44,194 bases of DNA from a virus (taxonomy: Duplodnaviria; Heunggongvirae; Uroviricota; Caudoviricetes). The stretch lies in IMG/VR virus record IMGVR_UViG_2541047949_000001, one strand, 5' to 3'. Under the pieces are notes generated by a model. That model had not been told where the DNA came from, ran no database searches, and saw only the letters and a program-made list of their open reading frames with translations. A program made the position numbers and the translations under genes. Shown one piece after another: positions 16,329-21,918 of this stretch (position 1 is the stretch's first letter; each line of letters starts with the position of its first letter).

Positions 16329-17411
16329 TTAGAACTGATAAACCAGACCTACAGCGACGATGTCGTCGGTATCAATACCAGCTGTTTTGGTAAACTTACT
16401 ATCGTCAATTAAGTTGATTTTGTAATCAACAAAAGTGGACATGTTTTTATTAAAGTAGTAAGTAGCACCGACATCGACATACTTGACTAAGTCTCGGTCA
16501 CCATGAACACCAAGGTCTTTACCTTTTGACTGAAGGTAAGCAACAGATGGACGCAGACCGAAGTCAAACTGATATTGTGCTACTGCTTCAAAGTTTTGTG
16601 CTTTGTTTGCAATATGGTTATTACCAAAAACGGTCATATTCTGAGTTTCAGAATATGTGGTAGCCAGATAGATATTGTTCGCATCATATTTCAGGCCTGC
16701 AGCCCATACTTCCGCATTTTTGCCGGAGGCATTGAATTTGCTCTTACCATAGGCGACCTGACCGTCAGTGCGATCTGATTTAGCATAGGTTGCACCCACG
16801 CCGAATCCTTCATACTCATAAGTAGTGGAGAAACCGAAACCATCACCATTGGCTTCAGTTACGTCAGTGCGGTCATTTTTACCCTGATACTGAGCAGCAA
16901 AGTTCAGGCCATCGACCAGACCAAAGAAGTCGTTGTTACGATAAGTTGCAACACCAGTAGTGCGACCAGTCATGAACACATCTGTTTGGGTCCAGGTATC
17001 ACCACCGAATTCTGGCAGAACGTCAGTCCACGCACCGATGTCGTATGCTACACCGTAGTTACGGCCGTAATCGATTGAGCCGTAATCACCAAATTTCAGG
17101 CCTGCAAATGCAAGACGGGTTTTGTCTTTGGAAGAACCTTGAGATTCAGCACGGTTGCCTTTGAATTCATATTCCCACTGACCGAAACCAGTCAGTTGAT
17201 CGTTGATTTGGGTTTCACCTTTGAAGCCAAGACGGGCATAAGTAGTATCACCATCATCTGCATCATTAGAGGAGAAGTAGTGCTTGGCATTAACTTTCCC
17301 GTATAGATCCAGCTTGTTACTGTCTTTATTATAAATTTCAGCTGCCTGAGCAGACATCGCCATCAGTACTGATGCAGCTACAGCAGAAATTGCCACTGTT
17401 AATTTTTTCAT
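16329..17411 (-). CDS. nmpC: Outer-membrane porin NmpC/Lc (OmpC family), apparently intact
   Basis: Signal peptide [23 protein letters not shown]; beta-barrel porin ending ...VAVGLVYQF. Confidence 0.9.
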
Positions 17412-17837
17412 TGTACGCCCTTTTTTTGAACTATTATTAAAAAATGATGTCACTGCGCGATAAATATTCATCTAATCAATGTGATTATTTCAAGATGTAA
17501 GTTTTAGTTTCTCATTTAATTTGTGAAGTAGATCTCTATTTTTATCTGAACCTTTTCTATCTAATCCTATTCATGGCTCTTGTCTGAACAAAAATAAATC
17601 TATTAGCTAATTTATATTAATGGCACTTATTTATAAGTGCTCTATAATTCTTTAGCTTAATTTAAACAAACTAAAAATAACATTGGAAATTATTAACTGG
17701 TTATTTGTTGAAGTTTTCTTATGCATTTGTGGTGGTGTTTTGAACACTCGGTGGCATTCTCACAAATATCATTTAGTAGTTTACGTACGTAAAAAATTGG
17801 TTATGCTGTTAAGAGTGGTTACTTCGTCACACAGCTT

Positions 17838-18215: not shown

Positions 18216-18712
18216 TGCCTCCATCATTACGAAAAGCCGTTGCTGCTGCTATTGGTGGCGGAGCAATTGCTATAGCATCAGTGTTAATCACTGGCCCAAG
18301 TGGTAACGATGGTCTGGAAGGTGTCAGCTACATACCATACAAAGATATTGTTGGTGTATGGACTGTATGTCACGGGCATACAGGAAAAGACATCATGCTC
18401 GGTAAAACGTATACCAAAGCAGAATGCAAAGCCCTCCTGAATAAAGACCTTGCCACGGTCGCCAGACAAATTAACCCGTACATCAAAGTCGATATACCGG
18501 AAACAATGCGCGGCGCTCTTTACTCATTCGTTTACAACGTGGGTGCTGGCAATTTCAGAACATCGACGCTTCTTCGCAAAATAAACCAGGGCGATATCAA
18601 AGGCGCATGTGATCAGCTACGTCGCTGGACATATGCTGGCGGTAAGCAATGGAAAGGTCTCATGACTCGTCGTGAGATTGAGCGTGAAATCTGTTTGTGG
18701 GGTCAGCAATGA
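18215..18712 (+). CDS. rrrD: SAR-endolysin (lysozyme, phage 21 R / RrrD type)
   Basis: 165 aa; N-terminal Gly/Ala-rich signal-anchor-release segment; start overlaps holin stop. Confidence 0.9.
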
Positions 18713-19170
18713 ACAGAGTAACCGCGATTATCTCCGCTCTGGTTATCTGCATCATCGTCTGCCTGTCATGGGCTGTTAATCATTACCGTGATAACGCCAT
18801 TACCTACAAAGCCCAGCGCGACAAAAATGCCAGAGAACTGACGCTGGCGAACGCGGTAATTACTGACATACAGATGCGTCAGCGTGATGTTGCTGCGCTC
18901 GATGCAAAATACACGAAGGAGTTAGCTGATGCGAAAGCTGAAAATGATGCTCTGCGTGATGATGTTGCCGCTGGTCGTCGTCGGTTGCACATCAAAGCAG
19001 TCTGTCAGTCAGTGCGTGAAGCCACCACCGCCTCCGGCGTGGATAATGCAGCCTCCCCCCGACTGGCAGACACCGCTGAACGGGATTATTTCACCCTCAG
19101 AGAGAGGCTGATCACTATGCAAAAACAACTGGAAGGAACCCAGAAGTATATTAATGAGCAGTGCAGATAG
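18709..19170 (+). CDS. rzpD: Spanin inner-membrane subunit Rz
   Basis: From [17 protein letters not shown]..., lambda Rz-like; start overlaps endolysin stop (ATGA). Confidence 0.85.
18929..19111 (+). CDS. rzoD: Spanin outer-membrane lipoprotein Rz1 (embedded in Rz, +1 frame)
   Basis: 60 aa with lipobox LVVVGC and proline-rich segment, nested inside Rz. Confidence 0.75.
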
Positions 19171-19201: not shown

Positions 19202-19495
19202 TTATTGTGAGCAATACACACGCGCTTCCAGCGGAGTATAAATGCCTAAAGTAATAAAACCGAGCAATCCATTTACGAATGTTTGCTGGGTTTCTGTTTT
19301 AACAACATTTTCTGCACCACCACAAATTTTTGCTGCATCGACAGTTTTCTTCTGCCCAATTCCCGAAACGAAGAAATGATGGGTGATGGTTTCCTTTGGT
19401 GTTACTGCTGTAGGTTTGTTTCCAACAGTAAACGTCTGTTGAGCACATCCTGTAATAAGCATTGCCAGAGCGGCAGAAAACAACATTTTTTTCAT
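19202..19495 (-). CDS. bor: Bor lipoprotein (serum-resistance)
   Basis: 97 aa from MKKMLFSAALAMLITGC...; lambda Bor-like. Confidence 0.85.
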   Translation of the reverse strand: MKKMLFSAALAMLITGCAQQTFTVGNKPTAVTPKETITHHFFVSGIGQKKTVDAAKICGGAENVVKTETQQTFVNGLLGFITLGIYTPLEARVYCSQ

Positions 19496-19975
19496 CTTAT
19501 TATCCTGCATTGTTAAAAACGGCAGAATCCTATGTGACAACAATTAAACGATAGTTAAATGGATTGATGAAAATTAAAACTACACAGGTGGGCTCAGACT
19601 ATTGGAGGAAGTTGGGGACACTCAGAATCCTGTGGAATGAAATAAACCGGTCTATCCGTCCATTACCCTTTTAGCTGCGCTGTATCGTCGCCGTATTCCC
19701 GCATTAACCATGACCGTAGCCCGACGGGGAATTCCTTCTGCGTGAGTGTGCGGGAATAATTAAAAACGATGCACACCGGGTTTTTACCGCGTTAATGATT
19801 CGCGGGTTTATCCCGGTGCGATGGTGGAAGAAACAGGAAGCTGTATTACAGAAAGTGCTACTACTGTATCCCGATGCGATGTATGTAATGTGAGTCAGAT
19901 AATGGCACAGGATGTGGTGATGTGGCAGTCTGGAACACAGGATATATTGTCAGAATAAGACCCGTAGGAATAAAA

Positions 19976-20302
19976 ATGAAAAGACGCCTTTTACTACTTT
20001 TTCTGTTATCTGTCCTGGCAGTGGGATGCTCGCAGCAAAAAGCTGATGAGCCCCGGCAATTAGTGACGGTGTATCCACGATATCCGGAATATGCTGCAGC
20101 AAATTATATCAAGGGGCTGGTTGAGGTTAAGTTCGATATTGGTGCTGATGGGACTGTGACACGGATCGTTTTTCTCCGCTCAGAGCCTCATAATTTGTTT
20201 CGTGATGAAGTGGTGAAGGCCATGGCGAAATGGCGATTTGAAAAGAATCGCCCCTGTCAGGGAGTGAAGAGACAATTTATCTTTACGCCGTCACGTCCTT
20301 GA
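19976..20302 (+). CDS. Lipoprotein with TonB C-terminal-like domain
   Basis: Signal plus lipobox MKRRLLLLFLLSVLAVGC; body YPRYPEYAAANYIKGLVEVKFDIGADGTV...AMAKWRF fits the TonB_C fold pattern. Confidence 0.6.
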   Translation: MKRRLLLLFLLSVLAVGCSQQKADEPRQLVTVYPRYPEYAAANYIKGLVEVKFDIGADGTVTRIVFLRSEPHNLFRDEVVKAMAKWRFEKNRPCQGVKRQFIFTPSRP

Positions 20303-20408
20303 TGCTTCCAGGTAGAGAGGGGCTGGAAGCAGGAGAAAAATGAAAGAGCCAGCGGTTATATTTTTGTCATGGTGAAGTGGTTTACTGAATTTGGCCACCT
20401 GAACAGAG

Positions 20409-21592
<1,184 letters not shown>

Positions 21593-21918
21593 CTCGGTGG
21601 CCAGTTTTTGTTGACCACTTCATGGCTGACGAGGAATGATGGAAGAAGGCGTTGTATGCCACACAACGCCTCACTGTTCATTTCTTCTTTTTCTCTGGTG
21701 GAACCCGATGAATAAGAGTTGCACTGGTTTCCGATGAGATGGCGATATACTCGGGCAAAGTATGCTGGCAGTTTTCCAACTGGTCAAAAATACCTGCTCT
21801 CGTCTGTTGCAATGCCTGCAGCATGCGGCGGCAATGCGCCTTGCTTTTACTAACCATCTTTCCTTCCTCTATCAGTCGCTGCGTGAACTCATCATGGAAT
21901 ACCAGGTAAATGCGGATG

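What the first reader, a model, noticed from the sequence alone, without database searches (positions are those of the whole stretch)
19544..20372. Lipoprotein with a TonB C-terminal-like domain next to bor: possible receptor-blocking exclusion factor
A 108-aa predicted lipoprotein (lipobox AVGC) shows the sequence pattern of the TonB C-terminal domain. A periplasm-facing TonB_C mimic could bind TonB boxes of outer-membrane receptors and block TonB-dependent phages or colicins, analogous in outcome to Cor or Llp. The 430-bp region upstream (19544..19975) is non-coding and contains inverted repeats (TATTCCCGCA 19697..19706 and TGCGGGAATA 19749..19758) that may be regulatory. The gene sits in the moron position beside bor.
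Basis: inference. Interest (0 to 1): 0.6.

Follow-up and report, generated by a model that had tools for sequence, protein, structure and literature searches.

The report
Prophage lipoprotein mimicking TonB C-terminal domain
A phage-21-type prophage carries a small outer-membrane lipoprotein that is a stand-alone copy of the receptor-docking end of the host TonB protein; the gene is already annotated and known to be switched on in lysogens, but its likely job, jamming TonB-dependent entry of rival phages and colicins, has never been tested.

Summary
Window 19976..20302 (+) encodes a 108-aa prolipoprotein (lipobox LAVG|C18, Ser at +2). After an ~8-residue tether, the mature part is a complete TonB C-terminal domain: Pfam TonB_C 7e-13, ~40% identity to E. 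coli TonB 150-230, and an AlphaFold model at 1.0 A from TonB in the BtuB complex. It has no membrane anchor and no proline-rich rod, so it cannot transduce energy. The gene is not new as an object. The identical protein is gene 73 of classic phage 21 and the 'TonB fragment' moron of prophage Perceval, which is transcribed in lysogens. 814 of 5426 complete E. coli genomes carry the region. Diverged alleles show dN/dS of 0.10-0.19. Its function is untested. The decoy idea (tethered competitor for TonB boxes) is plausible and has precedent in engineered periplasmic TonB fragments and in T5 Llp. It is not self-exclusion, because phage 21 uses LamB. It is one helix of a ~165-190-nt structured RNA element shared by lambdoid late operons whatever gene follows it, and that element is absent from Rfam. 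It is therefore not a regulator specific to this gene.

The parts
19976..20302 (+). CDS of the 108-aa TonB_C lipoprotein. It is identical to phage 21 CPT_21_73, Perceval LF82_160 and RefSeq WP_000830178.1.
   Evidence: ORF. Pfam, NCBIfam and PDB matches. Identical protein in phage 21, Perceval and ev017. RefSeq annotation. dN/dS 0.10-0.19.
19976..20029 (+). Signal peptide and lipobox (residues 1-18, LAVG|C18). Ser19 at +2 predicts sorting to the outer membrane.
   Evidence: Read directly from the sequence. The Cys and the lipobox are kept in all E. coli alleles and in the Salmonella, Klebsiella, Raoultella, Gibbsiella, Rahnella and Erwinia relatives. Acylation and localisation are inferred.
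20051..20290 (+). TonB C-terminal domain (residues 26-105): short helix, beta1, beta2, helix, beta3.
   Evidence: AlphaFold2 with a 25-sequence alignment gives mean pLDDT 86 and 95-98 for the ten-residue blocks 31-100. Foldseek matches: 2gsk_B rmsd 1.0 A over 81 columns (TM 0.94), 2grx_C rmsd 0.8 A. The residues aligned with TonB Y163, P164, F180, G186, F202, W213 and F230 are identical, and Y215 becomes F (alignment).
19202..19495 (-). iss/bor lipoprotein gene, the divergently oriented neighbour.
   Evidence: Pfam Lambda_Bor 1.1e-30. RefSeq annotates it as 'increased serum survival lipoprotein Iss'.
19677..19840 (+). Conserved structured RNA-like element. It is not specific to this gene.
   Evidence: 77 distinct versions were aligned. 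For 46 pairs in 8 helices, 96.4% of cells pair, against 30-58% in slid controls. 10 pairs and 78 cells carry compensatory changes. There are 421 G.U cells against 20 A.C cells, which places the structure on the + strand. No Rfam match.
19948..19956 (+). Possible extended -10 (TGtCAGAAT) of the gene's own promoter.
   Evidence: Inference only. The motif TGn-[C/T]A[G/A]AAT is kept about 20-40 nt upstream of the ATG in all five alleles, although the surrounding sequence has diverged. The consensus scan found no full sigma-70 site on this strand. A promoter somewhere in 19496-19975 is implied by lysogen transcription.
20304..20330 (+). Perfect 8-bp hairpin (GCTTCCAG...CTGGAAGC) starting 2 nt after the stop codon, with no T-run after it.
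   Evidence: Read from the sequence. The terminator scan did not call it.
20376..21619 (+). IS3-family (ISEc52-like) insertion downstream of the gene. It is not part of the system and does not touch the CDS.
   Evidence: Homology to uninterrupted prophages stops at 20375 and resumes at about 21620. RefSeq annotates an IS3-like ISEc52 transposase.

Best explanation
The gene encodes an outer-membrane lipoprotein that faces the periplasm. Its whole mature part is a TonB C-terminal domain on a tether of about 8 residues. It has no transmembrane anchor and no proline-rich rod, so it cannot couple to ExbB/ExbD.

The prophage expresses it during lysogeny from its own promoter. It would also be read in the late transcript, because it lies in late-operon sense.

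The most likely mechanism is a tethered competitive decoy. The edge of its beta3 strand would pair, by beta augmentation, with TonB boxes exposed by ligand-loaded TonB-dependent transporters, and possibly with the TonB boxes of incoming group B colicins. This would reduce productive engagement by the real TonB. Lysogens would then be less sensitive to TonB-dependent phages (T1, phi80 type), colicins and microcins, at some cost in siderophore and B12 uptake.

Shown here: domain identity, fold, lipobox, transcription in the lysogen, purifying selection, and a conserved position after the lysis cassette in three phage lineages. Inferred: acylation and outer-membrane localisation, binding to TonB boxes, and the protective phenotype.
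For: - Domain and fold. The model superposes on TonB as bound to BtuB and FhuA at 0.8-1.0 A. The beta3 strand (residues 94-103) and the aligned aromatic and Gly positions are kept.
- It is not a working TonB: TonB equivalog models score 45-69 bits against cut-offs of 265-448, and only the C-terminal ~80 residues align.
- It is a real gene under selection: dN/dS is 0.10-0.19 between alleles with dS up to 2.2. The region is present in 814 of 5426 complete E. coli genomes.
- Expression in the lysogen: the identical LF82_160 is 8-fold above prophage background. It reads log2 5.0-6.6 in all conditions, while the flanking Rz and terminase genes are at about 2.3-4.3. That is a level similar to host tonB at 4.2-7.2.
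- Precedent for dominance: exported TonB fragments 33-239, 103-239 and 122-239 inhibit TonB-dependent transport.
- Mechanistic plausibility: the TonB box pairs with beta3, and its activity depends more on secondary structure than on side chains. It projects 20-30 A into the periplasm.
- Precedent for the architecture: T5 Llp is an inner-leaflet outer-membrane lipoprotein that acts on the periplasmic face of FhuA, and it needs acylation for 2D confinement.
- Position: the gene lies directly after holin-endolysin-spanin in phage 21/Perceval, in Stx1a/JLK-2012 phages (72% identity) and in a Klebsiella phage (41% identity).
Against: - There is no binding or phenotype data.
- No PADLOC family matches.
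- Phage 21 uses LamB, so there is no self-exclusion logic.
- The carriers are often ExPEC or Nissle-type strains that depend on TonB-dependent siderophore uptake, so a strong dominant-negative would be costly.
- Positions aligned with TonB R158, Q160 and R166, which are implicated in contacts with the TonB box and cork (Q160; R158 and R166 from my own knowledge of the 2006 complex structures), are T, Y and Y here. The beta3 strand is also more basic (VKRQFIF).
- Related small TonB_C proteins in Serratia, Raoultella, Klebsiella and Erwinia sit among housekeeping genes, with no phage or transporter neighbours. Some have an ordinary signal peptide instead of a lipobox. The family may therefore have a general envelope role.
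- Transcript level is modest and does not respond to the macrophage condition.
- No Fur box lies upstream.
Confidence: 0.4

Rival explanations
1. It is an anti-TonB factor that acts on the energiser and not on the transporters. The tethered domain would bind the host TonB C-terminal domain, or the ExbD periplasmic domain, and hold it in an unproductive state. TonB is far scarcer than its transporters, so this would need fewer copies.
For: Transcript level is similar to that of host tonB. Work on exported TonB fragments raises the ExbD-TonB interaction as a possible alternative target of the inhibition. The model resembles the 92-residue TonB fragment 1u07, whose entry holds two chains.
Against: A paper title in the library states that the dimeric TonB crystal forms do not exist in vivo (PMC3005593, listed, not read). 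A domain on an ~8-residue outer-membrane tether is badly placed to reach ExbD at the inner membrane. This is inference.
Confidence: 0.12
2. It is an envelope or virulence moron that has nothing to do with TonB boxes. The TonB_C fold would serve as a generic periplasmic (or surface) binding module, for example for peptidoglycan or another envelope or host component. It would contribute to outer-membrane stability or host interaction, alongside the neighbouring Iss/Bor and the prophage porin.
For: It sits among other outer-membrane morons: the porin at 16329-17471 and iss. Chromosomal relatives lie in housekeeping contexts with no transporter link. Several positions implicated in TonB-box contact are changed.
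Against: Sequence and fold are closest to true enterobacterial TonB C-terminal domains in their receptor-bound conformation. There is no other domain. The gene is not co-regulated with bor in macrophages.
Confidence: 0.2
3. It has a late-infection or lysis-associated function. Because it lies directly after the spanin genes in late-operon sense in three phage lineages, it would act at the end of the lytic cycle. It might shut down TonB-dependent traffic, or affect the outer membrane or progeny release, with lysogen expression being incidental.
For: The position after holin-endolysin-spanin is conserved. PHROG phrog_1267 (full-length match, 5e-43) carries the label 'Rz-like spanin'.
Against: The window already has a canonical Rz/Rz1 pair (18697-19170, with Rz1 embedded at 18929-19111). 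The protein has no Rz1-like proline-rich region and no Pfam Rz1 hit. It is transcribed when the late genes are silent. The PHROG label most likely reflects annotation by neighbourhood.
Confidence: 0.1
4. It is an inert captured fragment of a tonB gene, as the labels 'TonB fragment', 'partial' and 'truncated TonB-like' imply.
For: Database labels. [quoted passage not shown]
Against: It has acquired a full lipoprotein signal peptide. It is intact in hundreds of genomes. Alleles at 67-85% identity keep the frame, length and lipobox, with dN/dS 0.10-0.19. It is transcribed. It belongs to a wider family of small secreted TonB_C proteins.
Confidence: 0.03

Closest known systems
C-terminal domain of E. 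coli TonB (PDB 1u07, 2gsk, 2grx; Pfam PF03544)
   Same: About 40% identity over 80 residues. The fold is the same at 0.8-1.4 A rmsd. The YP motif, the core aromatic residues and the beta3 strand that pairs with TonB boxes are kept.
   Different: There is no N-terminal transmembrane helix and no proline-rich spacer, so it is not connected to ExbB/ExbD. It is anchored to the other membrane through a lipobox. The residues aligned with R158, Q160 and R166 are changed, and the last ~4 residues of TonB are missing.
Engineered periplasmic TonB fragments (residues 33-239, 103-239, 122-239 exported with a signal peptide)
   Same: They have the same logic as proposed here. A TonB C-terminal region placed in the periplasm without energy coupling inhibits TonB-dependent transport.
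   Different: They are laboratory constructs, soluble, overexpressed and longer. The window protein is natural, minimal, lipid-anchored and expressed at about the tonB level. Its inhibitory activity is untested.
Llp of phage T5 (and Cor of phi80/N15)
   Same: They are small phage lipoproteins of the outer-membrane inner leaflet that act on a TonB-dependent transporter from the periplasmic side to exclude phages and colicin M. Llp needs acylation.
   Different: There is no sequence or fold relationship: Pfam and PHROGs give only TonB_C and phrog_1267. Llp and Cor are specific to FhuA, which is the receptor of the phage that encodes them, and they work allosterically. This protein would target the universal TonB box, and its phage uses LamB.
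Bor/Iss lipoprotein
   Same: It is the neighbouring moron, an outer-membrane lipoprotein expressed in lysogens.
   Different: The fold is unrelated. It is on the opposite strand and is regulated differently: bor is induced about 140-fold in macrophages, and this gene is not.
Small secreted TonB_C-only proteins of Enterobacterales (Salmonella 110 aa, Klebsiella 122 aa, Raoultella, Gibbsiella, Rahnella, Erwinia/Pantoea, Serratia), all uncharacterised
   Same: They have the same architecture (signal or lipobox plus a single TonB_C domain, 107-133 aa), 31-46% identity, and a shared signature SEPxxLFD...KWRFE..KP.
   Different: Those inspected are chromosomal, among housekeeping genes, not in prophages. 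Some have a signal peptidase I site instead of a lipobox.

Membership tests
TonB_C domain family (Pfam PF03544 / TIGR01352) | Profile score above the curated cut-off | tested here: met
   PF03544 scores 49.2 bits against 24.6. TIGR01352 scores 47.4 against 27.1.
TonB_C domain family (Pfam PF03544 / TIGR01352) | Three-stranded sheet packed against helices, as in solved TonB C-terminal domains | tested here: met
   The AlphaFold2 model has pLDDT 86. Foldseek top hits are all TonB, FusB or TonB2 C-terminal domains, with rmsd 0.8-1.6 A for the closest (ranks 1-8) and TM up to 0.94.
TonB energy transducer (NCBIfam PRK10819 equivalogs) | Whole-protein score above the equivalog cut-off | tested here: not met
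   Scores are 45-69 bits against cut-offs of 265-448. Only profile positions ~150-240 align.
TonB energy transducer (NCBIfam PRK10819 equivalogs) | N-terminal transmembrane anchor that couples to ExbB/ExbD, and a proline-rich periplasmic spacer | tested here: not met
   The N-terminus is a cleavable lipoprotein signal. Only ~8 residues separate Cys18 from the domain (sequence).
Bacterial lipoproteins (signal peptidase II substrates) | Lipobox with an invariant Cys after a positively charged, hydrophobic signal peptide | tested here: met
   MKRRLLLLFLLSVLAVG|C fits the PS51257 pattern as I recall it, applied by eye, not by a tool. The Cys is conserved in all full-length alleles.
Bacterial lipoproteins (signal peptidase II substrates) | Acylation and Lol-dependent sorting to the outer membrane | not testable with these tools
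   The only basis is the +2 rule: Ser, Thr or Ala at +2, and never Asp, in any allele.
Receptor-inactivating exclusion lipoproteins (Cor, Llp) | Homology to Cor or Llp | tested here: not met
   Pfam, PHROGs and PADLOC return only TonB_C and phrog_1267, or nothing.
Receptor-inactivating exclusion lipoproteins (Cor, Llp) | Blocks the receptor used by the encoding phage | tested here: not met
   The native receptor of phage 21 is LamB, which is not a TonB-dependent transporter. This window's own J protein was not typed.
Receptor-inactivating exclusion lipoproteins (Cor, Llp) | Confers resistance to phages or colicins that use a TonB-dependent transporter | not testable with these tools
   This needs plating and killing assays.
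o-spanin (Rz1-like), the label of phrog_1267 | Short proline-rich outer-membrane lipoprotein, paired with or embedded in an i-spanin gene | tested here: not met
   There is no Pfam Rz1 hit. The mature part is a globular TonB_C domain. A canonical Rz/Rz1 pair lies at 18697-19170 / 18929-19111.

The most novel reading that the evidence does not exclude
The protein founds an undescribed class of prophage-encoded, broad-spectrum exclusion factor. It would be a lipid-tethered 'anti-TonB' decoy that occupies the universal TonB box instead of one receptor. A single 91-residue protein would then blunt every TonB-dependent invader (phages, group B colicins, siderophore-microcins, sideromycins). Expression matched to tonB would tune the trade-off with iron uptake.
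Probability: 0.35. Interest if true: 0.75.

Novelty: new variant of a known kind. Interest (0 to 1): 0.55.

Why it matters
If the decoy mechanism is right, lysogens of a classic model phage (21), of ExPEC and AIEC strains and of the probiotic Nissle 1917 carry a built-in modulator of the TonB system. That would affect three things: susceptibility to therapeutic phages that need TonB, sensitivity to colicins and microcins in gut competition, and uptake of siderophore-conjugated antibiotics. It would also be a natural, minimal TonB-box binder that could serve as a tool or as an inhibitor scaffold.

The test is cheap: a deletion or plasmid construct, plating and killing assays, and uptake assays. 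If the idea is wrong, the gene remains an ordinary, already annotated moron.

Separately, the structured element upstream looks like an uncatalogued RNA motif. It is present in more than half of complete E. coli genomes and deserves its own study.

Tried and rejected
- PMC7724020 (prophage phiv142-3 orf6/orf10 and iron acquisition) looked relevant, but orf6 is a tail-fibre protein and the paper never mentions TonB. Dropped.
- The first AlphaFold run, with 6 near-identical sequences, gave pLDDT 61. It was not used and was replaced by a run with a 25-sequence alignment.
- The search for related loci with the broad alignment A3 failed because no block was conserved enough. It was rerun with A4.
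- I looked for guilt by association around the chromosomal relatives. There were no lambdoid genes and no transporter or iron genes.
- Fur regulation: the best match upstream of the window gene is 11 of 19 positions, which equals background. The Stx-type allele reaches 13 of 19, which is not unusual.
- PADLOC gave no hit. BFVD gave no viral structure with this fold.
- Rfam gave nothing for the upstream element in the window or in four other phages.
- Alternative helix for the element, CACCGGG (19774-80) with CCCGGTG (19812-18), which is repeat I1: rejected. The variable column 173 covaries with column 195, not with the invariant column 115.
- Short ORFs in the intergenic region are not conserved. 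These include the 45-aa CPT_21_72 equivalent and a possible 10-codon ORF at the 5' edge of the element. Indels are not in multiples of three, there is a stop in 933W, and the window version has no ATG.
- Literature searches for a described phage TonB-like decoy found none.
Full report
**What is there.** The window is a lambdoid prophage integrated next to icd. It has the pinholin S21, SAR endolysin, Rz/Rz1 lysis cassette of phage 21 and lambda-like head and tail genes. Between the lysis cassette and the terminase genes lie iss/bor (19202..19495, minus strand; Pfam Lambda_Bor 1e-30) and, on the plus strand, the ORF of the finding at 19976..20302 (108 aa, ATG start). An IS3-family element (ISEc52-like) is inserted from about 20376 to about 21619. 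It lies downstream of the ORF and leaves it intact.

- The N-terminus MKRRLLLLFLLSVLAVGC is a textbook lipoprotein signal: basic residues, a hydrophobic core, and the lipobox L-A-V-G-C with Cys18. Residue +2 is Ser, which by the +2 rule sends the protein to the outer membrane.
- The rest of the protein matches TonB_C well above the curated cut-offs (PF03544 49.2 against 24.6 bits; TIGR01352 47.4 against 27.1).
- It aligns to E. coli TonB residues 150-230 with no gaps at about 40% identity (phmmer against PDB 1.4e-14).
- With an alignment of 25 family members, AlphaFold2 gives mean pLDDT 86, with 95-98 for the ten-residue blocks 31-100.
- Foldseek returns only TonB-type C-terminal domains at the top. 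The match to TonB in the BtuB complex is 1.0 A over 81 columns (TM 0.94), and the match to TonB in the FhuA complex is 0.8 A.
Bor starts at 19495, so the intergenic region is 480 nt (19496..19975). The left arm of the inverted repeat is 19694..19703.

**What it is not.**
- It is not a TonB. The TonB equivalog models score 45-69 bits against cut-offs of 265-448, and only their C-terminal ~80 positions align. There is no transmembrane anchor and no proline-rich spacer.
- It is not a spanin, despite the label on phrog_1267 (full-length match 5e-43). A canonical Rz/Rz1 pair lies just upstream, and the protein is a globular domain.
- It is not a dead fragment, despite labels such as 'TonB fragment' or 'partial tonB-like'. 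Five alleles at 67-98% protein identity keep length, frame and lipobox. Pairwise dN/dS is 0.10-0.19 while dS reaches 0.35-2.2.

**It is already known as an object.**
- The identical protein is gene CPT_21_73 of classic phage 21, annotated 'TonB C-terminal domain protein'. It is also found in phage Perceval of AIEC LF82, in ev017 and in several PhiR phages.
- RefSeq calls it 'TonB family protein' (WP_000830178.1) in Nissle 1917, ATCC 11775 and many ExPEC strains. 814 of 5426 complete E. coli genomes carry at least 80% of 19500-20400.
- A 72%-identical allele sits in Stx1a phages and JLK-2012. A 41%-identical 122-aa relative sits in a Klebsiella phage. In every case the gene lies right after holin, endolysin and spanin and before the terminase, in late-operon sense.
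- It is still rare cargo. Only 15 of 50,697 phage records encode a homologue, and no BFVD viral structure has this fold at E <= 1e-3.

**Expression.**
- The LF82 study lists the identical gene (LF82_160) as a moron, 8-fold above prophage background.
- In that paper's supplementary tables the gene reads log2 5.0-6.6 in every condition. The flanking Rz gene (2.3-3.7) and the terminase small-subunit gene (2.3-4.3) sit near the floor of the table. Host tonB reads 4.2-7.2.
- The gene does not respond to the macrophage condition (log2FC 0.26), whereas bor is induced (log2FC 7.1).
- The gene therefore has its own promoter, and its transcript level is similar to that of tonB. All alleles keep a TGn-[C/T]A[G/A]AAT motif about 20-40 nt upstream of the ATG (window 19948-19956) in otherwise diverged sequence. 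I offer that only as a candidate extended -10.
- There is no Fur box.

**Wider family.**
- An exhaustive phmmer search found 2795 relatives at E <= 1e-3 but only 4 at E <= 1e-30.
- After its own alleles, the closest relatives include (besides one 513-aa protein with several TonB_C stretches) small proteins of 107-133 aa with a signal peptide or lipobox and a single TonB_C domain. They come from Salmonella (a 139-member cluster, with individual members seen on up to about 1000 contigs), Klebsiella, Raoultella, Gibbsiella, Rahnella, Erwinia/Pantoea and Serratia. All are unnamed beyond 'TonB family protein'.
- The chromosomal loci I inspected lie among housekeeping genes (dsbB and minCDE, araA, lacZ-like). 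They have no phage, transporter or iron genes nearby.
- Some members have an ordinary signal peptidase I site, so the lipid anchor is not universal.

**Mechanism.**
The protein would be a periplasm-facing, lipid-tethered TonB C-terminal domain that cannot pull but can still dock.
- In the solved complexes the TonB box forms a parallel strand against beta3 of TonB. Its activity depends on secondary structure more than on side chains, and the ligand-loaded transporter projects it 20-30 A into the periplasm.
- The window protein keeps beta3 (residues 94-103) and the residues aligned with TonB Y163, P164, F180, G186, F202, W213, Y215 (here F) and F230.
- Exported TonB fragments inhibit TonB-dependent transport.
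- T5 Llp shows that an acylated phage protein in the inner leaflet can act on the periplasmic face of a TonB-dependent transporter. There, acylation restricts diffusion to two dimensions.
- By inference, an ~8-residue tether puts the domain where TonB boxes emerge.
- The expected benefit is protection from TonB-dependent phages, colicins and microcins.

**Caveats.**
- Phage 21 uses LamB, so this is not the self-receptor logic of Cor and Llp.
- The positions aligned with TonB R158, Q160 and R166 are T, Y and Y here, and beta3 is more basic.
- ExPEC strains need TonB-dependent iron uptake.
- The chromosomal relatives hint at a more general envelope role.
- Nothing here measures binding or phenotype.
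- I put the decoy mechanism at about 0.4. The rivals are: action on TonB or ExbD itself (0.12), an unrelated envelope or virulence role (0.2), a late or lysis-linked role (0.1), and an inert fragment (0.03).

**The upstream region.**
- The first 289 nt after bor (19496-19784) are shared with lambda, 434, 933W and many Stx phages.
- Aligning the regions upstream of the different TonB_C alleles showed a block that is much better conserved than the coding sequence.
- Using the anchor AAAAACGATRCACACCGGG I collected more than 120 IMG/VR contigs and aligned 77 distinct versions.
- The block has sharp edges (window 19677 to about 19840). Its flanks are unrelated among phages.
- It lies between the lysis cassette (with or without bor, KilA-N or ant) and the packaging genes, whatever follows it. 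The TonB_C gene follows here. In 933W the terminase follows almost directly. In lambda there is a reverse-strand gene, and lambda keeps only the 5' half of the block.
- For a structure of 46 pairs in 8 helices, including an H-type pseudoknot at the 3' end, 96.4% of cells pair, against 30-58% when partners are slid. 10 pairs and 78 cells carry compensatory changes, and 0 of 500 shuffles reach the observed covariation.
- Wobble pairs are strongly one-sided: 421 G.U cells against 20 A.C cells. The constraint therefore acts on the plus strand, in the sense of the late transcript.
- No Rfam 15 family matches it in the window or in four other phages.
- It occurs in 432 of 50,697 phage records and in 3080 of 5426 complete E. 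coli genomes, and it is unannotated in nearly all the records listed; two phage records place a 'hypothetical protein' over it.
- The repeat is therefore real and functional-looking. It is not a regulator specific to this gene, and its function remains unknown.

**Verdict.** The gene is an already annotated, lysogen-expressed moron with a very clear domain identity and no tested function. The decoy hypothesis is specific, has precedent and is cheap to test. I classify it as a new variant of a known kind (a TonB_C domain in a lipoprotein-only, phage-borne architecture), with interest 0.55.

Noticed in passing
window 19677-19840 (+); also L018:3169-3354, L022:1500-1686, L024:1497-1682 and about 120 IMG/VR loci: A ~165-190-nt conserved element with sharp boundaries lies between the lysis cassette and the packaging genes of lambdoid phages. 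It has 8 helices, including a 3' pseudoknot, with compensatory changes and a strong excess of G.U over A.C pairs, which places the constraint on the + strand. It has no Rfam match and is unannotated. It occurs in 432 phage records and 3080 of 5426 E. coli genomes. Lambda and 434 carry only the 5' half. In the few complete phage records where I read the coordinates it lies about 0.1-1.5 kb from the right end of the record. Its function is unknown.
   Followed up: partly
IMG/VR loci such as L029, L033, L045, L046 (immediately 3' of the element); not in the window: In many phages the element is followed directly by a near-perfect palindrome, ATGATAAYNATTATCATT. It resembles a Fur box, and there are 56 copies among the fetched loci. 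In at least one case a terminase-small-subunit-like ORF starts about 160 nt further on. The palindrome could therefore be a packaging (cos-related) site or a regulatory site instead of a Fur box.
   Followed up: no
window ~20376-21619: An IS3-family (ISEc52-like) element is inserted between the TonB_C gene and the small hypothetical gene that precedes the terminase. Only two listed genomes (SF-088, PE144) share this junction.
   Followed up: partly
window 16329-17471 (-): A porin gene (annotated ompC, NmpC-like) lies between the Q antiterminator and the lysis cassette. It is also a lysogen-expressed moron in LF82 (10-fold above background). This prophage therefore carries three outer-membrane morons within 4 kb: the porin, Iss/Bor and the TonB_C lipoprotein.
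   Followed up: no
PHROGs family phrog_1267: The family that holds this protein (full-length match, 5e-43) is labelled 'Rz-like spanin' in the lysis category. This looks like a mislabel derived from gene neighbourhood. Pipelines that annotate from PHROGs will propagate it.
   Followed up: partly
window 20057-20077 (protein residues 27-33, RQLVTVY): The segment between the lipid anchor and the domain has the alternating hydrophobic pattern of a TonB box (compare DTLVVTA, ETLTV, recalled from memory). The AlphaFold model predicts residues 28-30 as a short strand. I could not see which strand it pairs with. If it pairs with beta3, the protein could cap its own binding edge.
   Followed up: no
proteins P0085, P0097, P0242, P0244-P0248 (Serratia, Erwinia): Some members of the small TonB_C family have an ordinary cleavable signal peptide (…ALA|, …ASA|Q) instead of a lipobox. 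They would be soluble periplasmic TonB C-terminal domains, natural counterparts of the engineered inhibitory TonB fragments.
   Followed up: no
window 20304-20330: A perfect 8-bp hairpin starts 2 nt after the stop codon of the TonB_C gene. It has no T-run and was not called as a terminator.
   Followed up: no
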